This document shows positions 1,121 to 10,505 of a stretch of 25,637 bases of DNA, one piece after another. A program made the position numbers and the translations under genes. The stretch covers positions 1 to 25,637 of the forward strand of contig JACDGA010000001.1 of NCBI GenBank assembly GCA_013815505.1, written 5' to 3'. The notes under the pieces were generated by a model. That model saw only the letters and a list, made by a program, of their open reading frames with translations, had not been told where the DNA came from and did no database searches. Origin of the DNA: Acidimicrobiia bacterium (lineage in GTDB: Bacteria > Actinomycetota > Acidimicrobiia > Acidimicrobiales > Ilumatobacteraceae). The first letter of the stretch is position 1. Each line of letters opens with the position of its first letter.

Positions 1121-1411
1121 TCATCGGTCGTGTTCCATGCTGGCCCACAGGCCGTGCTCGTGGAGCCGGAACACGTGCAGCTCCGCCTGCTCGCGGGCAC
1201 CGGACGAGACGACGGCCTTGCCCTTGTGGTGGACGTCGAGCATCAGCGCCGTCGCCTTCTCGAGGTCGTAGCCGAAGAGCTTCTGGAGCACGTGGGTGAC
1301 GTAGCTCATGAGGTTGATCGGGTCGTTCCACACGATCACGACCCACGGATGGTCCTCGGCCGTCTCGTCGTCGACGTTCGATTCGATCACGGGGGTGGTC
1401 GACGTCGACAT
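1121..1411 (-). CDS. clpS: ATP-dependent Clp protease adaptor ClpS
   Basis: [25 protein letters not shown]...[13 protein letters not shown], the actinobacterial ClpS signature. Confidence 0.95.
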
Positions 1412-2659: not shown

Positions 2660-4321
2660 ATGACCACCCTTGACACCAGCGCCGCCGCGACGACCAACGA
2701 CGGTCGCGCGCTCGTCGCTGACGACACGATCGGTGTGTTCGACTCGATGTCGGGCTGGCTGACCACCACCGATCACAAGCGCATCGGACGGCTCTTCGTC
2801 GTGTCCTCGCTCGTCGTGGGCGTCGCTGTGGCGCTGGTCGCCGTCGTGCTGGGCATCGAGCGGGTTGCCGACGGCGAGGTCTTCGATGCATCCGCCGTGC
2901 CGCAGCTGTTCGCTGCGTTCCGCTTCGGACTCGTGTACTCCCTCGCACTGCCGCTGATGGTGGGCCTCGCCATCGCCGTCGTGCCGCTGCAGGTCGGCGC
3001 GCGAGCGCTGGCGTTCCCGAGGCTGGCACTCACCGGCTTCTGGTTCTGGGCGAGCGGCCTCGTGTTCGTCGCCATCGCTCTCGCCAACAACGGCGGGCCG
3101 GCGGGGGGCGACCCCGACATGGTCGACCTCTTCCTCGCCGCCTACGCGCTGCAGCTGATCGGGCTGCTCGCAGCGGGCGTGTCCGTCGCCACCACCGTGC
3201 TGACGGCGAGAGTCCCCGGCATGACGCTGCGCCGGATCCCGCTGTTCTCCTGGTCGGCGCTCGTGCAGGCCATCGCGATCACGCTCACGCTGCCCCTGCA
3301 GATCGGGCTCGTCGTCTACCTGTTCGTCGACCACCGCAACGGCCGTCTCGCCTTCGGTGGCAACACCGGCATCGGGCAGTGGCTCGGGTACGGGGTCACC
3401 CAGCCGATGACATACGTCGCCGCGACCACCGTGTTCGGCCTCGCGCTCGAACTGGTCGCCGTCACGTTCGGTCGACGGTTGCAGCTCCGCAGCGTGCTCT
3501 ACGCCGGCGTCGGACTCGTCGGCGTGGGTGCCCTCGGTGCCGTCACGCAGCAGACCCGCAACTTCGAGGTCCTGTGGCGCACGGCCGGCGCGCCCGACGA
3601 CGCCGCCGAGACGCTCGGCGACATCGTCACGCTCGGGCTGTTCCTCGGGTTGCCGCTGCTCGGCGCCCTCACCGTGCTCGGCGCCGGCGGGTTGACCGCT
3701 GCGGCCGCCCCGAAGGTGCGCCCCCGGATCTCCGGTCCGTTCGTCATGTCGTTCCTCGGTGCCGGCATGGTCGTCACCGGCATGGTCGGCGGGCTCGTGT
3801 ACCCCATCGGGATCTTCGGACTCAGCGGCACCGTCTTCGAGGAGGCATGCCTCGTCTACGTCGTCTACGGCACAGTGCTCGCCGGCATGGGCGCCGTCGC
3901 CTACTGGGCGCCGAAGTGGTGGGGCCGCCTGATCCCCGACAAGCAGGTGCTCGGCCTCGGCGCGCTGGGCATGATCGCCACCGTGCTCGCCTCGCTGCCC
4001 TACGTCGTCGCAGGGTTCGCCGACCAACCGGCCGGGGCCGTCGACTTCGACTACGAGGGGCCGAAGGTGCTGTGGAACCTCGCCGTCACCGCGGGACACG
4101 CGCTGATGGCCGTCGTCGTGCTCGCCTTCGTCGGACTCGTGGCGAAGACAGCCACCGGTCGCGGTGGCGACGACGCGCACGACGACCCGTGGGGTGGTCA
4201 GACGCTCGAGTGGGCCACCGCGTCCCCGGCGCCGCGTGACAACTTCGCCGAGGTCGGCTCGGTGATGTCGCCCGAGCCGCTGCTCGACTCGACGGCCGAG
4301 CCGGACGAGGAAGGTCGTTGA
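2660..4321 (+). CDS. Cytochrome c oxidase subunit I-like protein lacking metal ligands (pseudo-CoxI)
   Basis: Keeps fold motifs TTDHKRIG, PLQVGARALAFPR, PGMTLRRIPLFSW, YWAPKWWGR, DPWGGQTLEW..SP.P..NF. Positions of the six His ligands read F, Q, A, V, C, V by manual alignment to CtaD at 7279. Confidence 0.85.
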   Translation: MTTLDTSAAATTNDGRALVADDTIGVFDSMSGWLTTTDHKRIGRLFVVSSLVVGVAVALVAVVLGIERVADGEVFDASAVPQLFAAFRFGLVYSLALPLMVGLAIAVVPLQVGARALAFPRLALTGFWFWASGLVFVAIALANNGGPAGGDPDMVDLFLAAYALQLIGLLAAGVSVATTVLTARVPGMTLRRIPLFSWSALVQAIAITLTLPLQIGLVVYLFVDHRNGRLAFGGNTGIGQWLGYGVTQPMTYVAATTVFGLALELVAVTFGRRLQLRSVLYAGVGLVGVGALGAVTQQTRNFEVLWRTAGAPDDAAETLGDIVTLGLFLGLPLLGALTVLGAGGLTAAAAPKVRPRISGPFVMSFLGAGMVVTGMVGGLVYPIGIFGLSGTVFEEACLVYVVYGTVLAGMGAVAYWAPKWWGRLIPDKQVLGLGALGMIATVLASLPYVVAGFADQPAGAVDFDYEGPKVLWNLAVTAGHALMAVVVLAFVGLVAKTATGRGGDDAHDDPWGGQTLEWATASPAPRDNFAEVGSVMSPEPLLDSTAEPDEEGR

Positions 4322-4896
4322 TGCAGGCCCTCGCAGCCGCCCCTGCCCCTGCGCCGCGCCGCCAGGTGCTCGTCGGCACCGCGTTCGCGTGCGTTGCCGG
4401 CACGATGCTCGTCGGCGGGATGCTGGCCGTCTGGCTCGTGATCCGTGACCGTGCCATCGCCGCAGAGGGGACGTGGGTGCCTCCCGACGTGGCGATCCCC
4501 GAAGTGCCGTCCAACATCATGCTGATCAGCTTCCTCGCGCTCGTCGTCTTTGCGCAGTGGGCGGTCTACGCCGCGCGCCGGGGCGAGCGGTCGAGCGCAG
4601 CGCTCGCACTCGGCGCCACGGGCCTCGTCGCGATCGCCGTCGTCAACGCCCAGGCGTTCGTCTACTCACAGATGGAGCTGCCGATCGCAGACACGGCCTA
4701 CGGGCCGATGTTCTACGCCGTCACCGGGGTCTTCCTGGTGCTGATGGTGGTCGGGCTGGCGTTCACCGTCGTGACGGCGTTCCGCGTGCTCGGTGGCCGC
4801 AGCGACGGCGACGTCGTCGCCGCCCACGCCCTGTACTGGTACTTCGTGGCGGCGGCGTTCGCTGCGATCTGGCTGATCGTGTACGTGACGAAGTGA
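4321..4896 (+). CDS. Cytochrome c oxidase subunit III-like protein, degenerate
   Basis: About five hydrophobic helices; MFYAVTG (cf. FYALTGFHG) and LYWYFV...IW (cf. LYWHFVD.VW). ATG overlaps the upstream stop (TGATG). Confidence 0.8.
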   Translation: MQALAAAPAPAPRRQVLVGTAFACVAGTMLVGGMLAVWLVIRDRAIAAEGTWVPPDVAIPEVPSNIMLISFLALVVFAQWAVYAARRGERSSAALALGATGLVAIAVVNAQAFVYSQMELPIADTAYGPMFYAVTGVFLVLMVVGLAFTVVTAFRVLGGRSDGDVVAAHALYWYFVAAAFAAIWLIVYVTK

Positions 4897-4912
4897 TCGG
4901 GAGCGCCTGACG

Positions 4913-6064
4913 ATGCTCACCAACGGGTCCAAGCTGCTCCTCGCCGGCACCACGCTGGCTGCGGTCGCAGCGATCGTCTACGGCGTCACGCAGGACGGCA
5001 CGCTCGGCGTCGTCGGCCTGCTGTCGGCCGCCATTGCCCTCGGTTTGCTCGCCGGCATCGTCATCGCCACCCGCGATGGCAACGTGTCGGCGATGGACGA
5101 GGCGGCGGCACAGACCGCTGTGGCAACCCACGTCGCGCCCGAGGGCAACATCTGGCCGCTCATCGTCGCCGGTGGTGCCGCACTCGTCGTGCTCGGGCTC
5201 GTGACGCAGTCGGCGTTCGTGATGCTCGGCATCGGGCTGCTGCTCATCGCGGGACTGCAGTGGATGGTCGACGCGTGGAGCCAGAGCGCATCTGCTGACG
5301 GCACGTTCAACCGCGACGCGAGGGCCCGCTTCGCCGGTCCGCTCGAGTTCCCGCTGCTCGCCACGGCGGTGGGGGGCGTGGTCGTCTTCTCGTTCAGCCG
5401 GATCATGCTGTTCCTGTCGAAGACGGCGGGTCCGGTGGGGTTCGTCGTCGCCGCACTGCTGATCCTCGCCGGCGGCTTCCTGTTCGCCTCGCAGCGGTCG
5501 ATGCGGTCCACCGCCGTTGCGGGCCTCACCGCGTTCGCTGCACTCGGCCTCGTCGCCGGCGGCGTGGCGGCCGGTCTCGACGGCGAGCGGTTCATCGAGG
5601 AGCACGAGACGACGGGCTTGCTCGGCGAGGAATCCGAGTGCGACACGACGGACGAGACCCACGCGGACGAGAACGCCTCACAGACGGTCGGCAACAAGGC
5701 CGCCATCATGGCCGACATCACCCTCGACGCCGAGGGTGAGCTGACGTCGAAGGCGCCCGGCCAGCAGGCCAGCCAGCGCATCGTGGTCGGGCGAGGCAAC
5801 CCGAGCAACATCATCTTCCACAACGAGAGCGACGAGCCGCGCCGGATCACGTTGACCACGGGGCAGCGGCCGCTGCTCGACGAGGAGGGTGAGGAGATCG
5901 AGGGTCAGACGACGCCCGATCAGCGCTGCACCGCACTCGCCGAGGAGGGCGGTTCGCAACTCCTCACGTTCAGAATCGACAAGCGCTCCGCCGTCGCCGA
6001 CGAGGCCTTCGAGTTGACGGTCCCAGGCGTCGAGGGACAGGCCATCGAAGTGGTGGTGCCGTGA
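4913..6064 (+). CDS. Membrane protein: CtaF-like N-terminus, extra TM helices and a C-terminal beta-rich, cupredoxin-like soluble domain
   Basis: N-terminal pattern P..NIWPLIVA...W resembles actinobacterial subunit IV (CtaF). About 7 TM segments, then an acidic beta-rich domain (NIIFHNESDEPRRITL...GGSQLLTFRI...FELTVPG) without a Cys/His/Met copper set. Domain calls are by eye. Confidence 0.55.
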   Translation: MLTNGSKLLLAGTTLAAVAAIVYGVTQDGTLGVVGLLSAAIALGLLAGIVIATRDGNVSAMDEAAAQTAVATHVAPEGNIWPLIVAGGAALVVLGLVTQSAFVMLGIGLLLIAGLQWMVDAWSQSASADGTFNRDARARFAGPLEFPLLATAVGGVVVFSFSRIMLFLSKTAGPVGFVVAALLILAGGFLFASQRSMRSTAVAGLTAFAALGLVAGGVAAGLDGERFIEEHETTGLLGEESECDTTDETHADENASQTVGNKAAIMADITLDAEGELTSKAPGQQASQRIVVGRGNPSNIIFHNESDEPRRITLTTGQRPLLDEEGEEIEGQTTPDQRCTALAEEGGSQLLTFRIDKRSAVADEAFELTVPGVEGQAIEVVVP

Positions 6065-7272
6065 CGGCTCCCGCTACCGTGATCCGCGTGCCCTCCCACC
6101 GAAGGTTGATGCTCGCCGTCGGTGCAATCGCAGCGGTCACGCTCACTGCCTGCGCCGAAGATGCGCCCCAGGACACGTGGCAGCCCGAAGGCGAGAACTC
6201 CACCCGCATCCACAACCTGCAGTGGCCCGTGTTCGCCATCGCCGGCGTCGTCGGACTGCTCGTCTTCCTCGCCATCGTGTGGGTCGTCATCCGCTATCGC
6301 GACCGCGGGCAGCCCATCCCGAAGCAGTCGCACGGCAAGCCGGCGCTCGAGATCGCGCTCACGATCCTGCCCGCACTGATCCTCGTGGGGGTCGCCGTGC
6401 CGACCGTCGGCACGCTGATGGCATTGGCCGAGACCGACGACACCGAGTGCTCGGTCAACGTCTATGGGCAGCAGTGGTGGTGGGAGGTCGAATATCCCGA
6501 GCAGAAGGGCTGTGGCGGCATCGATCGCGAGTTCGTCACGAGCGGCCAGATGGTGATCCCCACCGGCACGAAGGTGCTGGTCAGCGGTACGAGCCGTGAC
6601 GTCATCCACAGCTGGTGGATCCCGGCGTTGAACGGCAAGAAGGACATGGTCCCCGGTCGCGTGCACACCGTGCGAACCCAGGCCGACGAGCCAGGGATCT
6701 ACGCCGGCCAGTGCACGGAGTTCTGCGGTCTGTCGCACGCCAACATGCGCATGGAGGTGGTCGCCCTCGACCCCGGCGACTTCGAGACGTGGAAGGCCAA
6801 CCAACTGAAGCCGTATGCCGCGCCCGAGGAGGGCTCGATCGCCGCTGAGGGCGAGTCGGCGTTCATCTCGCAATGCGCCCGCTGCCACGTCGTCGACGGC
6901 CTCGACGACGGCGGCGTCAACGCGCCCGAGCAGTTCGTCTACTCGCGCACGGCGCCCAACCTCACGAACCTGATGACGCGCAACACGTTTGCCGGCGCGA
7001 CGTTCGACCTGCTCACCGACGAGTGCCGCGAACGCGTGTGGGAGGCGACGCCGGAGGAGTTCGGCGAGCGCTACCTCGAGGGCGTCACGCCGGAGTGCCT
7101 CAACGAGGTCGACCTCAGGGCGTGGATCAAGAACGCTCCGGCGATGAAGCCGATGTACACCGACGGCACGAAGCTCGGCCCGACTGACGGCAGGTCACGC
7201 GGCATGCCCGCCCTCGGGCTCAACGACGACCAGGCCGATCAGCTCGTCGCCTACCTCTTGGAACGGAACTAG
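6061..7272 (+). CDS. ctaC: Cytochrome c oxidase subunit II with fused cytochrome c (caa3 type), lipoprotein
   Basis: Lipobox LTAC, GQQWWWEVEY, CuA ligands DVIHSWW and CTEFCGLSHANM, heme c motif CARCH. GTG overlaps the upstream TGA. Confidence 0.95.
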   Translation: MTAPATVIRVPSHRRLMLAVGAIAAVTLTACAEDAPQDTWQPEGENSTRIHNLQWPVFAIAGVVGLLVFLAIVWVVIRYRDRGQPIPKQSHGKPALEIALTILPALILVGVAVPTVGTLMALAETDDTECSVNVYGQQWWWEVEYPEQKGCGGIDREFVTSGQMVIPTGTKVLVSGTSRDVIHSWWIPALNGKKDMVPGRVHTVRTQADEPGIYAGQCTEFCGLSHANMRMEVVALDPGDFETWKANQLKPYAAPEEGSIAAEGESAFISQCARCHVVDGLDDGGVNAPEQFVYSRTAPNLTNLMTRNTFAGATFDLLTDECRERVWEATPEEFGERYLEGVTPECLNEVDLRAWIKNAPAMKPMYTDGTKLGPTDGRSRGMPALGLNDDQADQLVAYLLERN

Positions 7273-7278
7273 CCCACG

Positions 7279-9300
7279 ATGGCCATCATCGAGCGCCCCG
7301 CCACCGAACCCGTCGTCGCTCCCACCCCCACTCCCGCCCCAATCGTGACGCCCTCCGAGGCGTTCGGCACGTTCCGCCGACCCGTCGAGACCACGGGATG
7401 GCGAGCATGGGTGTTCACCGTCGACCACAAGAAGATCGGCGTCATGTACGGCGCCGCTGCGCTGTTCTTCTTCGTGGTCGCCGGTCTCGAGGCGCTGCTC
7501 ATCCGTGCCCAGCTCGCCGGGCCGGAGGGCACGGTGCTATCGGCCGACGTCTACAACCAGATGTTCACGATGCACGCGACGACGATGATCTTCCTGTTCG
7601 CGATTCCGATGGCCGCCGGCCTCGCCAACTACCTCGTCCCGTTGCAGATCGGCGCCCGTGACGTCGCCTTCCCGCGCATCAACGCCTTTGGCTTCTGGTG
7701 CTTCCTCGCCGGCGGCATCGTCCTCAACCTCTCGTGGTTCCTCGGTGGCGCTGCCGACGGCGGCTGGTTCATGTACCAGCCCAACGCCTCCGTGCCGTTC
7801 TCGCCCACCAACGGCGTCGACTTCTGGGCGCTCGGCCTGCAGATCGCCGGCATCGCCTCGCTCACCGGCGCCATCAACCTGATCGTCACGATCCTCAACA
7901 TGCGGGCGCCGGGGATGAGCCTGATGCGCATGCCGGTGTTCACCTGGATGATCCTCGTGACCCAGTTCCTGCTCGTGTTCGCCATCCCGGTCATCACGGT
8001 GGCGTTCTTCCTGCTCACGTTCCAGCGAAGTTTCGACGCCGCCTTCTTCTCGCCGGCAGCCGGCGCCGACCCGCTGCTGTGGCAGCACCTGTTCTGGATC
8101 TTCGGGCATCCCGAGGTGTACATCCTCGTGCTGCCGTCGTTCGGCATCGTCTCCGAGGTGCTCCCGGTCTTCTCGAAGAAGCCACTGTTCGGCTACCCCT
8201 TCGTCGTCTTCTCGGGCATCGCCATCGGCTTCCTCGGGTGGGGCGTGTGGGCGCACCACATGTTCGCCTCGGGTCTCGGCCCCGTGTCGGTCGCCGTGTT
8301 CGCCACGGCGACGATGGCGATCGCCGTGCCGACCGGGGTCAAGATCATCAACTGGACGCTGACGATGTGGGGCGGCAAGTTGCGCTTCACCACGGCGATG
8401 CTCTTCGCCATGGGCCTCGTCGTGCAGTTCACGATCGGTGGCCTGTCGGGCGTCACGCACTCGGTCGCGCCGTCGGACACCCAGCAGACCGACACGTACT
8501 ACATCGTCGCCCACTTCCACTACGTCCTGTTTGGCGGGTCGGTGCTCGGGTTCTTCGCCGGCTTCTACTACTGGTGGCCGAAGGTCTTCGGCAAGTGCCT
8601 CAGCGAACGGCTGGGACGTTGGAACTTCTGGCTGATGATCATCGGGATGAACTTGACGTTCGGTCCGATGCACATCCTCGGCCTGCAGGGACAGCCGCGA
8701 CGGATGTACATCTGGACGACGGAGCGCTCGGGTGAGGGGTTCTTCAACCTCGGGTTCTGGAACCTCGTGTCGTCCATCGGTGCGTTCATCCTGGCCGTCG
8801 GTGTGCTCTTCTTCCTGACCAACATCGTCCACACGCATCGCAAGGGTGCGCCGGCGCCGCTTGACCCGTGGGACGCACGCACGCTCGAGTGGATTACGAC
8901 GAACCCGCCGAAAGAGCACAACTTCGACCGCGTCCCAACCGTCAGCCACCTCGACGAGTTCTTCCATCGCAAGTACGAGGACGTCGGCGAGGGTGATGCC
9001 CACGATCTCCGTGCGGTGGCGACCGCCGAGGAGGTGCTGGCCGCCGAGCAGGCACAGGCCGACGCCCAGATCCACATGCCGTCGCCGAGCTACTGGCCGA
9101 TCGTGGTCGCCGCCACGCTGCCGGTCATCGCCCTCGGGATCATCTACGGCGTGTACATCGTGTCCATCGTGGGTGCGCTGCTGATGGTGTTTGGGATCTT
9201 CGGCTGGGCGATGGAGCCCGGCACCGCGCCCGACTCGGACTTCGATCCGTCCCCGGTCGACGACGGCGGGCCGACCACGGAGCTGGTTCGAAGTGAGTGA
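7279..9300 (+). CDS. ctaD: Cytochrome c oxidase subunit I (A1 type) with C-terminal extension
   Basis: FTMHA, WIFGHPEVY, VWAHHMF, VAHFHY, D-pathway GARDVAFPRIN, K-pathway VPTGVKI, GQPRR. Extra IHMPSPSYWP plus hydrophobic helices at the C-terminus. Confidence 0.98.
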   Translation: MAIIERPATEPVVAPTPTPAPIVTPSEAFGTFRRPVETTGWRAWVFTVDHKKIGVMYGAAALFFFVVAGLEALLIRAQLAGPEGTVLSADVYNQMFTMHATTMIFLFAIPMAAGLANYLVPLQIGARDVAFPRINAFGFWCFLAGGIVLNLSWFLGGAADGGWFMYQPNASVPFSPTNGVDFWALGLQIAGIASLTGAINLIVTILNMRAPGMSLMRMPVFTWMILVTQFLLVFAIPVITVAFFLLTFQRSFDAAFFSPAAGADPLLWQHLFWIFGHPEVYILVLPSFGIVSEVLPVFSKKPLFGYPFVVFSGIAIGFLGWGVWAHHMFASGLGPVSVAVFATATMAIAVPTGVKIINWTLTMWGGKLRFTTAMLFAMGLVVQFTIGGLSGVTHSVAPSDTQQTDTYYIVAHFHYVLFGGSVLGFFAGFYYWWPKVFGKCLSERLGRWNFWLMIIGMNLTFGPMHILGLQGQPRRMYIWTTERSGEGFFNLGFWNLVSSIGAFILAVGVLFFLTNIVHTHRKGAPAPLDPWDARTLEWITTNPPKEHNFDRVPTVSHLDEFFHRKYEDVGEGDAHDLRAVATAEEVLAAEQAQADAQIHMPSPSYWPIVVAATLPVIALGIIYGVYIVSIVGALLMVFGIFGWAMEPGTAPDSDFDPSPVDDGGPTTELVRSE

Positions 9301-9959: not shown

Positions 9960-10319
9960 ATGAGCGAATCCACCACCCTCGACGAGACGGCAACCGGCAC
10001 GGATGCCACCGCGCAGCACTCGCCCGAGCCCCCCGACGACGGGCACGCTCACGGCGCCACCGACGGTCAGTACATCGTCATCGCCCTGATCCTGGCCGTC
10101 ATCACCGCCGCCGAGGTGTCGCTCAGCTACATGGACGTCGGGCCGATCTTCATCCCCGCCCTGCTCGTGATGATGGCCGTCAAGTTCGTCATCGTCGTCA
10201 GCTACTTCATGCACCTGAAGTTCGACAACCGGATCTTCTCGTTCCTCTTCTACTCGGGACTCCTCCTCGCCCTCGGCGTCTACGTCCTCGCCCTCGCCAC
10301 CTTCGAATTCTTCGCGTAG
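9960..10319 (+). CDS. Prokaryotic cytochrome c oxidase subunit IV family protein
   Basis: YIVIALILAVITAAEV, AVKFVIVVSYFMHLKFD (FMHL motif), three TM helices. Confidence 0.9.
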   Translation: MSESTTLDETATGTDATAQHSPEPPDDGHAHGATDGQYIVIALILAVITAAEVSLSYMDVGPIFIPALLVMMAVKFVIVVSYFMHLKFDNRIFSFLFYSGLLLALGVYVLALATFEFFA

Positions 10320-10505
10320 TCGCACTCACTCGCCGTCGCCGCCTTCGGCGGCTCGGCTCCGTTCCTGCGAGTTTGAGGGCCTCGCTGCGCTCGGCGGGGC
10401 GCGACTGGTCTGGGCCAACGTCTGTCGCGCCGGCCAAGCCGGCGCTCGTGCGTCCGCCTGATACCAGGGCCGCCTTCGTCCTCTGCTCGCCGGTAGGTTC
10501 GTCGA

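What the first reader, a model, noticed from the sequence alone, without database searches (positions are those of the whole stretch)
4913..6064. CtaF-like / extra TM / copper-less cupredoxin-like fusion: a possible stand-in for subunits IV and II
Seen: four N-terminal hydrophobic segments with P..NIWP and a terminal Trp, about three more TM helices, then an acidic beta-rich domain with only two distant Cys (ESECDT, DQRCTA) and no CxExCxxxHxxM. Inference: a cupredoxin-like fold without CuA, possibly closed by a disulfide, that could dock an external partner. This is the least certain domain call in the module.
Basis: inference. Interest (0 to 1): 0.68.

Follow-up and report, generated by a model that had tools for sequence, protein, structure and literature searches.

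The report
Copper-less cupredoxin subunit of ghost oxidase
This gene encodes a seven-helix membrane protein that joins a cytochrome-oxidase subunit-IV-like module to an outward-facing blue-copper-type domain that has lost all its copper ligands; together with two neighbouring cofactor-less oxidase look-alikes it appears to form an undescribed, non-catalytic "ghost oxidase" set in Acidimicrobiales soil bacteria.

Summary

- **Architecture.** ORF 4913-6064 (383 aa) has three parts: a CtaF-like four-helix module, three more TM helices carrying a family-wide S-R-x-x-L motif, and an acidic linker followed by a C-terminal domain.
- **Fold.** AlphaFold models the C-terminal part at pLDDT 94. An exhaustive PDB comparison returns only cupredoxins (EfeO, nitrosocyanin, Cupredoxin_1, auracyanin; Z about 10-11).
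- **Origin.** The domain descends from a mononuclear type-1 blue-copper domain, not from CuA subunit II. Distant relatives in the same operon slot keep His/Cys/His/Met. Here those positions read R311, V370, V373 and Q376.
- **Cys pair.** C243 and C339 co-occur in 155 of 197 relatives and are both absent in 34. C243 lies in a lineage-specific insert, which favours a structural disulfide.
- **Context.** The gene always follows a ligand-less CoxI paralog and a CoxIII-like gene, between ctaB and the working ctaCDEF genes.
- **Co-variation.** All five sampled loci that keep the copper site also keep the low-spin haem His pair in the CoxI paralog. This supports a former electron-entry role analogous to subunit II.
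- **Present role.** Probably non-redox and structural, but this is untested.

I found no published description.

The parts
4913..6064 (+). Whole gene, 383 aa plus stop. It is the third gene of the cofactor-less oxidase-like set.
   Evidence: ORF and translation; GC3 frame signal; homologues of the same length in 28 of 31 related genomes.
4899..4903 (+). Shine-Dalgarno-like GGGAG, 9 nt before the ATG.
   Evidence: Read directly from the sequence.
4913..5284 (+). CtaF-like (subunit IV-like) four-helix module, residues 1-124. It includes the PEGNIWP motif (residues 76-82, nt 5138-5158) and W117/W122.
   Evidence: PF12270 at 20.3 bits over the whole profile. PDB 8hcr_H is the best sequence match. 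AFDB 'cytochrome c oxidase polypeptide IV' matches residues 1-232. The family profile hits stand-alone CtaF at E about 1e-13. hhalign 84%.
5285..5350 (+). Arg-rich loop, residues 125-146, predicted cytoplasmic. R139, E145 and P147 are invariant.
   Evidence: Loop charges across the family; invariant columns.
5351..5581 (+). Three-helix membrane anchor, residues 147-223. The FSRIML motif (161-166, nt 5393-5410) has S162, R163 and L166 invariant across the whole superfamily.
   Evidence: AF2 helices; alignments A1 and A3. The segment is homologous to the anchor of stand-alone three-TM blue-copper proteins.
5582..5704 (+). Acidic linker, residues 224-264, net charge -10. It holds the lineage-specific insert with C243 (nt 5639-5641) and the ADENASQ motif, and it packs on the beta domain.
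   Evidence: The insert is absent from Cu-bearing and Cys-less relatives. pLDDT is 82-93 in the domain model. Charge.
5705..6061 (+). Copper-less cupredoxin domain, residues 265-383. The former type-1 ligand positions are R311 (nt 5843-5845), V370 (6020-6022), V373 (6029-6031) and Q376 (6038-6040). C339 is at nt 5927-5929.
   Evidence: Model pLDDT 94.4, pTM 0.87. VIA-align Z of 10.8, 10.6 and 10.0 to EfeO-Cup, nitrosocyanin and 4hcf, with all top-50 matches cupredoxins. Foldseek results. Ligand mapping. Transitive hhalign 99.7% and 98.8%.
2660..4321 (+). Context: ligand-less CoxI paralog, 553 aa, the presumed partner. It lacks the CtaF-like C-terminal tail that the real CtaD carries.
   Evidence: PF00115 at only 88 bits. 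All six His ligands are replaced.
4318..4896 (+). Context: divergent CoxIII-like gene, 192 aa.
   Evidence: PF00510 at 46.6 bits. It is present upstream of the target in the annotated homologous loci, and in all 33 a CoxI-like gene lies about one gene-length further upstream.
6061..7272 (+). Context: working CtaC (CuA plus haem c). Its start overlaps the target's stop.
   Evidence: TIGR02866 at 181 bits; CuA and CxxCH motifs and the GTGA overlap.

Best explanation
**What the protein is.** The gene encodes a seven-helix membrane protein, N-terminus in and C-terminus out, made by fusing two older parts:
- a CtaF-type subunit IV module of four helices;
- a three-helix-anchored type-1 blue-copper protein.

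It is the third subunit of a three-gene paralogous oxidase-like set: pseudo-CoxI, pseudo-CoxIII and this protein. The set lies between ctaB and the working ctaCDEF genes.

**Inferred arrangement.** By analogy with CtaF, the N-terminal bundle binds pseudo-CoxI, which lacks the CtaF-like tail that the real CoxI proteins of this organism carry in cis. This holds the cupredoxin domain on the outer face, where the CuA domain of subunit II sits in a real oxidase.

**Ancestral state.** In early-branching relatives the domain still has a His/Cys/His/Met type-1 copper site, and pseudo-CoxI still has the low-spin haem His pair. The domain was therefore originally the electron-entry module of this paralog.

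**State in the window's lineage.** All four ligands are replaced (R311, V370, V373, Q376). A new acidic insert is pinned to the beta sandwich, most likely by a C243-C339 disulfide. The former copper-site loops (RR310-311, VPGV370-373) remain invariant. The domain therefore now serves a non-redox role as a structural cap or docking surface of a cofactor-free complex.

**Shown versus inferred.**
- Shown: the architecture, the fold, the loss of ligands, the ancestry, the synteny and purifying selection.
- Inferred: the physical association with pseudo-CoxI, the disulfide, the topology and the present function.
For: **Fold.** The domain model has pLDDT 94.4. The exhaustive PDB comparison gives only cupredoxins at the top: EfeO Z 10.8, nitrosocyanin 10.6, NirK 10.5, 4hcf 10.0.

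**CtaF homology.**

**Fusion origin.**
- Outside the order the family profile splits into two kinds of hit. One is stand-alone CtaF next to CtaD. The other is a set of roughly 250-aa three-TM type-1 copper proteins directly behind ctaG.

**Ancestry of the copper site.**
- Relatives P0228, P0234, P0257, P0258 and P0272, and loci L027-L029, keep N-x-D-x-G-x-x-H and C-D-V-H-P-x-x-M.
- P0228 passes the Pfam cut-offs for both PF12270 and PF13473.
- hhalign links the Cys-pair forms to the Cu-less forms at 99.7% and the Cu-less forms to the Cu forms at 98.8%.

**Belongs with the ghost set.**
- The order ctaB / CoxI-like / CoxIII-like / target / ctaC is seen in the annotated homologous loci, and a CoxI-like gene lies upstream of the target in all 33 loci examined.
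- Four genomes of the order without the target (at least 92% complete) were found to hold only fully liganded CoxI (plus one other oxidase-family gene in G076), and a fifth had no CoxI match.
- The target diverges at the ghost pace: 48-49% identity, like pseudo-CoxI at 49%. CtaD is at 74-79%.
- All 5 loci with the copper site keep the haem His pair in pseudo-CoxI, against 2 of the other 28. These forms are a basal grade in the pseudo-CoxI tree.
- The real CoxI proteins of this genome carry CtaF modules in cis. Pseudo-CoxI does not.

**Selection.** dN/dS is 0.41 against G001, and 0.19 against G002, which is an unpublished genome. The gene is intact in 17 of 17 sampled genomes of the family.

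**Cys pair.** Both present in 155 proteins, both absent in 34, one only in 8, of 197.

**Topology.** K+R residues concentrate in loops 125-146 and 193-198.
Against: - No direct evidence of any protein-protein contact exists.
- The co-variation of copper and haem ligands rests on only 2-3 independent contrasts on the tree. It could reflect a single shared loss.
- Twelve sampled lineages have dropped the cupredoxin domain entirely while keeping the rest of the set. The domain is therefore not essential to whatever the set does.
- The gene is translationally coupled to ctaC, and both of its ancestral parts belong to real oxidases elsewhere. Association with the working caa3 enzyme cannot be excluded.
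- No transcript evidence was found.
Confidence: 0.6

Rival explanations
1. The protein is an accessory subunit of the working caa3 oxidase (CtaC/CtaD/CtaE), not of the ghost set. On this reading it is a CtaF-type subunit IV whose tethered former blue-copper domain now only shapes or shields the cytochrome c / CuA entry side.
For: - Its stop overlaps the ctaC start.
- Outside the order, both ancestral parts are encoded with real oxidases: CtaF next to CtaD, and the three-TM blue-copper gene behind ctaG.
- Some Acidimicrobiia even fuse a Cupredoxin_1 domain to CoxB.
Against: - The real CtaD here already carries a CtaF-like tail, and a COX4_pro gene follows.
- Four genomes of the order with a normal oxidase but no ghost CoxI also had no match to the target.
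- The target evolves at the ghost pace, not the pace of CtaC/D/E.
- Copper-ligand retention tracks haem-ligand retention in the ghost CoxI.
Confidence: 0.17
2. The two invariant Cys, with nearby H231, E232 and the acidic residues, form a new metal site, for example Cu(I). The outward-facing domain would then act as a membrane-tethered copper chaperone or buffer for CuA assembly in the co-translated CtaC, as CupA or Sco/PCuAC do.
For: - The Cys co-occur strictly.
- Structural neighbours include metal-handling cupredoxins without a classical type-1 site: EfeO-Cup, FtrB and the Cu chaperone CupA (Z 8.6-10.8).
- The gene sits in an operon with ctaB and, in relatives, ctaG.
Against: - There is no Met or His next to either Cys.
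- C243 sits in an insert that whole sister lineages with the same synteny lack, and others lack the entire domain. The pair is therefore not part of the core function.
- An extracytoplasmic location in an aerobe favours oxidised cystine.
Confidence: 0.12
3. The gene is a decaying relic with no remaining function and is merely carried along in the cta operon.
For: - All cofactor ligands are lost.
- It diverges faster than the real oxidase genes.
- dN/dS of 0.2-0.4 is high for a respiratory protein.
- One relative, G015, shows the gene in three pieces with two TGA stops.
Against: - The ORF is intact, at the same length, in 17 of 17 sampled genomes of the family and in most of the order.
- 47 columns are invariant, including a newly gained and then fixed insert with a Cys pair.
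- dN/dS is clearly below 1 in both halves of the protein.
Confidence: 0.06

Closest known systems
Actinobacterial cytochrome aa3 oxidase subunit IV, CtaF (Pfam PF12270; e.g. chain H of the mycobacterial III2IV2 supercomplex 8hcr)
   Same: Four TM helices in the same order, a long TM2-TM3 loop ending in the S-x-W-P motif, and a profile match over the whole Pfam model. The family profile retrieves true CtaF at E about 1e-13.
   Different: - The score is below the Pfam cut-off.
- CtaF is a stand-alone protein of about 130-140 aa, whereas this module is fused to three more helices and an outer domain.
- The adjacent CoxI-type gene is cofactor-less.
Mononuclear cupredoxins of the Cupredoxin_1 / EfeO-Cup / nitrosocyanin / auracyanin kind (PDB 4hcf, 7wgu, 1iby, 1ov8; Pfam PF13473, PF00127)
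   Same: - The same Greek-key beta sandwich, with Z of 9.5-10.8 and rmsd of 1.7-2.9 Å over 86-102 residues.
- Homologous through intermediates to family members that pass PF13473 and keep His/Cys/His/Met.
- Membrane-tethered and outward-facing, like auracyanin.
   Different: - All four copper ligands are replaced.
- The window protein has no Pfam hit.
- It carries an extra acidic N-terminal insert pinned by a Cys pair.
- The anchor is seven helices rather than a lipid or a single helix.
Copper-less subunit II cupredoxins of haem-copper enzymes (CyoA of E. coli bo3, PDB 1cyx/7xmc; gNOR subunit II as described in PMC11214002)
   Same: A cupredoxin domain kept on the outer face of a CoxI-type subunit after losing its copper. 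Structural similarity is Z 7.5-8.1.
   Different: - Those descend from CuA-type COX2 with a two-helix hairpin and belong to active enzymes that oxidise quinol.
- This domain descends from a type-1 site.
- It is attached to a subunit IV module.
- Its CoxI partner has no haem or copper ligands.
SufI/FtsP (PDB 2uxt), a multicopper-oxidase-fold protein without copper
   Same: A precedent for a cupredoxin fold that lost all copper and was kept for a structural role. It appears among the Foldseek matches.
   Different: SufI/FtsP is a soluble three-domain periplasmic divisome protein with no relation to respiratory operons.
Sulfocyanin SoxE in the archaeal SoxM terminal oxidase supercomplex (Pfam PF06525)
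   Same: A membrane-anchored type-1 copper protein encoded with, and feeding, a haem-copper oxidase. This resembles what the copper-bearing relatives of this protein probably do or did. The comparison rests on general knowledge; SoxE appeared here only as a weak Pfam hit for a related CoxB fusion.
   Different: SoxE keeps its copper, has a single anchor helix, and is not fused to a subunit IV module.

Membership tests
Actinobacterial cytochrome c oxidase subunit IV (CtaF, PF12270) | Score at or above the Pfam gathering threshold (26.9 bits). | tested here: not met
   20.3 bits by hmmscan and 21.9 bits in the genome search. Relative P0228 reaches 31.1 bits. 17 of 35 members match at E<0.01, all or nearly all below the cut-off.
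Actinobacterial cytochrome c oxidase subunit IV (CtaF, PF12270) | Four TM helices with the W-P motif opening helix 3, aligned over the full model. | tested here: met
   Residues 6-119 align to profile positions 5-124 of 132. Helices. W81 and P82 are invariant. hhalign to a 102-bit CtaF gives 84% probability. hmmsearch gives E about 1e-13.
Actinobacterial cytochrome c oxidase subunit IV (CtaF, PF12270) | Subunit of a catalytically competent aa3 oxidase. | not testable with these tools
   The upstream CoxI-type gene lacks all six His ligands. Physical partners are unknown.
Type-1 (blue) copper cupredoxins (PF13473 Cupredoxin_1 / PF00127) | Cupredoxin Greek-key beta-sandwich fold. | tested here: met
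   The model has pLDDT 94.4. All top-50 exhaustive PDB matches are cupredoxins, best Z 10.8. Foldseek probability is 1.00.
Type-1 (blue) copper cupredoxins (PF13473 Cupredoxin_1 / PF00127) | His, Cys, His (and Met) copper ligands. | tested here: not met
   Aligned positions read R311, V370, V373 and Q376. The domain has no conserved His or Met.
Type-1 (blue) copper cupredoxins (PF13473 Cupredoxin_1 / PF00127) | Sequence-profile membership. | tested here: inconclusive
   The window protein has no Pfam hit at E<=0.01. A direct hhalign to the Cu-bearing relatives gives only 27%. Transitive links are 99.7% and 98.8%, and relatives pass PF13473.
Haem-copper oxidase subunit II (COX2, PF00116/PF02790) | CuA motif H...C-x-E-x-C-x3-H-x2-M. 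| tested here: not met
   A regex search finds none. The protein has only two Cys, 96 residues apart.
Haem-copper oxidase subunit II (COX2, PF00116/PF02790) | N-terminal two-helix hairpin followed by the cupredoxin, and closest fold relatives among COX2 domains. | tested here: not met
   Seven helices precede the domain. COX2-type domains score Z 7.0-8.9, below the mononuclear cupredoxins at 9.5-10.8. There is no PF00116 or PF02790 hit.

The most novel reading that the evidence does not exclude
The three-gene set may be a previously unrecognised branch of the haem-copper oxidase superfamily. It began as a CuB-less enzyme with a tethered type-1 copper entry site feeding one or two haems; forms like this still exist in basal Acidimicrobiales lineages. 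It was then stripped stepwise of copper, haem and finally the cupredoxin domain, yet was retained for a very long time as a cofactor-free membrane complex that partners or regulates the adjacent caa3 oxidase. On this reading the window protein is the fossil electron-entry subunit, repurposed as a disulfide-braced docking cap.
Probability: 0.3. Interest if true: 0.8.

Novelty: new variant of a known kind. Interest (0 to 1): 0.64.

Why it matters
Pseudo-enzymes derived from respiratory complexes are rarely documented. I found no description of a complete cofactor-free copy of an oxidase kept inside a working oxidase operon.

This gene supplies the piece that makes the set read as a whole complex: a subunit IV module plus the only cupredoxin the set has. 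Its relatives show a graded series:
- type-1 copper with haem ligands;
- copper-less;
- copper-less with a new disulfide-braced insert;
- the cupredoxin domain deleted.

That series allows testable questions about how redox proteins are repurposed, and about what a haem-copper oxidase scaffold does when it can no longer move electrons. It also points to tethered blue-copper domains as a common electron-entry solution for Acidimicrobiia oxidases.

Cultured relatives such as Desertimonas flava carry the same gene set, so experiments are feasible.

Tried and rejected
- **CuA subunit II origin: rejected.** There is no CuA motif. Relatives carry a single-Cys type-1 motif. Mononuclear cupredoxins score higher than COX2 domains.
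- **C339 as the old copper-ligand Cys: rejected.** The ligand Cys aligns with V370, about 30 residues downstream.
- **ORF 1474-2649 as a module gene: rejected.** It is an Arg-rich wrong-frame artefact. The real gene there is ctaB at 1547-2572.
- **Direct profile link between the Cys-pair C-terminal domain and the Cu-bearing domain: weak.** It reached 27% and needed the Cu-less intermediate alignment.
- **PDB sequence search with the family profile: marginal only.** It returned 8hcr_H at E 0.23.
- **Statistical test of copper/haem co-loss: underpowered.** There are only 2-3 independent contrasts.
With A7 it returned only 10 Acidimicrobiales/Actinomycetota MAG loci. The Chloroflexota clusters hinted at by the ESM Atlas could not be followed.
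- **Transcript evidence: none.** No run is shown to be RNA.
- **Literature: nothing found** on this family or on cofactor-less oxidase paralogs in four full-text searches and one paper read.
- **Cys-Cys distance: not measured**, because model coordinates are not exposed.
Full report
**Setting**

The window is high-GC DNA (about 0.69 GC) from an uncultured Acidimicrobiales bacterium (names of homologues). The same DNA is found in soil, rock and sand metagenomes. Reading frames were fixed by third-position GC and by family searches. The gene order is:

| Gene | Coordinates | Notes |
|---|---|---|
| clpS | 1121-1411, minus strand | |
| ctaB (haem O synthase) | 1547-2572 | |
| divergent CoxI-like gene | 2660-4321 | |
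| divergent CoxIII-like gene | 4318-4896 | |
| gene under study | 4913-6064 | |
| ctaC | 6061-7272 | normal; CuA plus haem c |
| ctaD | 7279-9300 | has a C-terminal CtaF-like tail |
| ctaE | to 9946 | |
| COX4_pro gene | 9960-10319 | |
| serS | follows | |

The CoxI-like protein has none of the six canonical His ligands.

**Observation**

- The ORF is intact, with GGGAG 9 nt before the ATG and a stop that overlaps the ctaC start.
- AlphaFold2 predicts seven TM helices at 4-27, 30-55, 81-97, 100-124, 147-171, 174-192 and 199-223.
- PEGNIWP lies at residues 76-82, and W117/W122 close helix 4.
- Residues 224-383 are strongly acidic (net -22, pI 4.2). They contain the only two Cys, C243 and C339, and no CuA motif. 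The neighbouring CtaC has CTEFCGLSHANM and CARCH.
- The protein belongs to a large unannotated family. There are 359 or more clusters at 90% identity, all called 'hypothetical', and 596 clusters at 50% identity with E<1e-3.
- In a 35-member alignment, 47 columns are invariant. They include both Cys, W81-P82, W117, FSRIML 161-166, F302/N304, R310-R311, C339-T340 and V370-P-G-V373.

**N-terminal module**

Several lines tie residues 1-124 to actinobacterial subunit IV (CtaF).
- Pfam PF12270 aligns over its whole length, residues 6-119 against profile 5-124 of 132. The score is 20.3 bits, below the 26.9-bit cut-off.
- Seventeen of 35 members match at E<0.01, and the distant member P0228 reaches 31.1 bits.
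- The best PDB sequence match is the mycobacterial subunit IV chain 8hcr_H, at a marginal E of 0.23.
- An AlphaFold DB cluster named 'cytochrome c oxidase polypeptide IV' matches residues 1-232.
- A profile of the family, searched across the class, hits short stand-alone proteins next to CtaD at E about 1e-13. These are unambiguous CtaF, with PF12270 at 92-102 bits.
- hhalign to one of them gives 84% probability.

I conclude that helices 1-4 are a diverged CtaF module.

**C-terminal domain**
- In the full-length model the beta part already had pLDDT 80-89.
- Modelled alone with 52 homologues, residues 226-383 reach pLDDT 94.4 and pTM 0.87. The acidic linker packs on the sandwich.
- Foldseek against PDB and AlphaFold DB returns Cupredoxin_1 (4hcf), auracyanin, azurin, laccase domains and 'EfeO-type cupredoxin-like' clusters.
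- An exhaustive alignment to 48,161 PDB representatives gives only cupredoxins in the top 50:

| Match | Z |
|---|---|
| EfeO-Cup | 10.8 (rmsd 2.1 Å over 89 residues) |
| nitrosocyanin | 10.6 |
| NirK domain | 10.5 |
| 4hcf | 10.0 |
| FtrB | 9.6 |
| auracyanin | 9.5 |
| COX2-type domains | 7.0-8.9 |

The fold call is therefore secure.

**Where the domain came from**

Among distant family members that share the TM scaffold, at least eight keep a textbook type-1 copper site: N-x-D-x-G-x-x-H plus C-D-V-H-P-x-x-M. They are P0228, P0234, P0257, P0258, P0272 and loci L027-L029.
- P0228 passes Pfam cut-offs for both PF12270 and PF13473.
- Sources name such proteins 'cupredoxin domain-containing protein', 'cytochrome c oxidase subunit 4' or 'plastocyanin'.
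- Alignment maps the ligands onto R311, V370, V373 and about Q376 of the window protein.
- The direct profile link between the window subfamily and the copper forms is weak, at 27%.
- It is strong through the copper-less, Cys-less intermediates: 99.7% (E 2e-26) and 98.8% (E 1.4e-16).

Outside the order, the profile separates into two kinds of hit. One is stand-alone CtaF. The other is a set of roughly 250-aa proteins with three TM helices and an intact plastocyanin-type site, encoded directly behind ctaG in the caa3 operon (hhalign 80%).

The window protein is therefore a fusion of CtaF with a three-TM-anchored blue-copper protein that later lost its copper. It is not a derivative of CuA subunit II.

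**The Cys pair**
- Of 197 near-full-length family proteins, 155 have both Cys and 34 have neither. Eight appear to have only one, and most of those eight are frameshifted or misaligned entries.
- C243 lies in an acidic insert of about 20 residues that is absent from the copper-bearing and Cys-less forms. C339 precedes a Thr conserved across nearly the whole family.
- An insert and a Cys pair that arose together in an outward-facing domain point to a structural disulfide.
- A new metal site is a minority alternative. I could not measure the S-S distance because coordinates are not exposed.

**Which complex it belongs to**

*Synteny.* The order ctaB / CoxI-like / CoxIII-like / target / ctaC is seen in the annotated homologous loci. 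In all 33 loci examined, which include Desertimonas flava and copper-bearing forms, a CoxI-like gene lies upstream of the target on the same strand.

*Distribution.* The gene occurs in 28 of 31 close relatives. It occurs in 17 of 17 sampled genomes of the family. Full-length forms were found only within the order.

*Co-absence.* Four genomes of the order, at least 92% complete and without a match to the target, were found to hold only fully liganded CoxI (plus one other oxidase-family gene in G076). A fifth had no CoxI match at all.

*Divergence rate.* Identity of each window protein to its counterpart in the relatives L001, L003 and L004:

| Protein | Identity to relatives |
|---|---|
| target | 49/48/33% |
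| pseudo-CoxI | 49/49/43% |
| pseudo-CoxIII | 57/48% |
| CtaC | 66-71% (52% to L004) |
| CtaD | 71-79% |
| CtaE | 75-77% |

*CtaF modules in cis.* The real CoxI proteins of this genome carry CtaF modules in cis. CtaD in the window has a tail scoring 29 bits. A second CoxI on contig C448 carries a full CtaF at 74 bits. Pseudo-CoxI has no such tail.

*Co-variation.* All five loci with an intact copper site have a pseudo-CoxI that keeps the helix II and helix X His pair of the low-spin haem, and three of these also keep the haem a3 His. Only 2 of the other 28 loci keep the pair, and none keeps the three CuB His ligands.

*Tree.* In a tree of pseudo-CoxI rooted on CtaD, the paralogs form one clade with 100% support. 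The copper/haem forms are a basal grade, and the Cys-pair forms are the most derived clade, also with 100% support. This gives only 2-3 independent contrasts, so the pattern is suggestive and not statistically established.

Together these observations favour the view that the protein is the subunit IV plus cupredoxin component of the paralogous set. They also favour the view that its cupredoxin once delivered electrons to the paralog's low-spin haem, as CuA does in a real oxidase.

**Selection and dispensability**
- dN/dS is 0.41 against the congeneric genome G001.
- dN/dS is 0.19 against G002. G002 is flagged unpublished, and that figure, the 97% identity and locus L010 rest on it.
- Both halves of the protein are below 1.
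- Twelve sampled lineages keep the TM part with the ghost CoxI and CoxIII but have lost the cupredoxin domain altogether.
- One relative, G015, shows the gene in three pieces with two TGA stops.
- The domain is therefore not indispensable to the set. In the window's lineage, however, it is well conserved, and most strongly at the former copper-site loops.

**Topology**

Basic residues concentrate in loops 125-146 and 193-198. The short loops 28-29, 98-99 and 172-173 have none. With seven helices this gives N-in, C-out. That fits a former copper domain and a disulfide on the outside. This step is inference.

**Mechanism proposed**

The CtaF-like bundle docks on pseudo-CoxI. The three-helix anchor and the disulfide-braced acidic linker hold a rigid, copper-free cupredoxin on the outer surface. 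The invariant former ligand loops (RR310-311, VPGV370-373) form the contact face. The present role is non-redox: structural, or docking of a partner, within a cofactor-free complex encoded with the working caa3 oxidase.

The rivals, set out with their evidence in the separate field, are:
- an accessory subunit of the real caa3 enzyme;
- a new Cys-based metal or chaperone site;
- a functionless relic.

**Novelty**

Four full-text searches and a reading of the 2024 survey of new haem-copper oxidase families (PMC11214002) found no description of this family or of cofactor-less oxidase paralogs. That paper does describe copper-less subunit II cupredoxins (gNOR, bo3), which are the nearest functional precedent. 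ESM Atlas clusters for this protein are unannotated. More distant clusters combine PF13473 with PF12270, some in Chloroflexota. That is a lead I could not follow.

The parts are known kinds, but the combination, its degenerate state and its context are new. I rate it a new variant of a known kind, embedded in a module that may be more novel.

Noticed in passing
own genome contig C448 (locus L062:333-3419, + strand): This is a second, fully scoring CoxI (PF00115, 517 bits) fused in one open frame to a complete CtaF module (PF12270, 74 bits). The organism therefore has two real CoxI genes with CtaF parts in cis, plus the ligand-less paralog.
   Followed up: partly
own genome contig C225 (locus L061:564-1187, - strand): This is a 207-aa lipoprotein-like protein with a lipobox-like ...TACGDD and an intact type-1 copper site (PF13473 at 57 bits, PF00127 at 48 bits). 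It is a candidate mobile electron carrier that remains in this genome.
   Followed up: partly
L016:6485-7240(-) and L020:5399-6172(-): In other orders of Acidimicrobiia, a protein of about 250 aa with three TM helices and an intact plastocyanin-type copper site is encoded directly behind ctaG in the caa3 operon. Its anchor is homologous to helices 5-7 of the window protein.
   Followed up: partly
L041:1205-2650(+) and L045:7841-8989(-): Some Acidimicrobiia CoxB (subunit II) proteins carry a C-terminal Cupredoxin_1 / plastocyanin-type domain where caa3 enzymes carry cytochrome c. This would be a CuA plus type-1 copper subunit II.
   Followed up: no
window 9070-9216 (CtaD residues about 599-646): The working CtaD ends in a two-helix tail that matches the second half of CtaF (PF12270 at 25-29 bits) and DUF7541. 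The operon also encodes a COX4_pro subunit.
   Followed up: partly
loci L008, L027, L028 (CoxI-like genes): The basal ghost CoxI paralogs keep both haem His sites (helix II His and H-x-H in helix X) but none of the three CuB His ligands. This suggests a two-haem, CuB-less derivative of the oxidase fold paired with a type-1 copper subunit.
   Followed up: partly
G015:C7:156753-157892 (relative, 70% complete): The homologue appears in three pieces, with two in-frame TGA stops in one piece. It may be a broken copy or an assembly problem.
   Followed up: no
protein P0003 (88% identical homologue): It lacks 26 residues covering the first strands of the cupredoxin domain. This is either a natural deletion variant or an assembly artefact.
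   Followed up: no
window 1121-1411 (-) and homologous loci: clpS, together with a DUF2017 gene in relatives, is conserved divergently upstream of ctaB in every long locus examined.
   Followed up: no
window 10320-10505: In relatives, ctaG (Caa3_CtaG) lies between the COX4_pro gene and serS. In the window, serS follows directly and no ctaG is present at that place.
   Followed up: no
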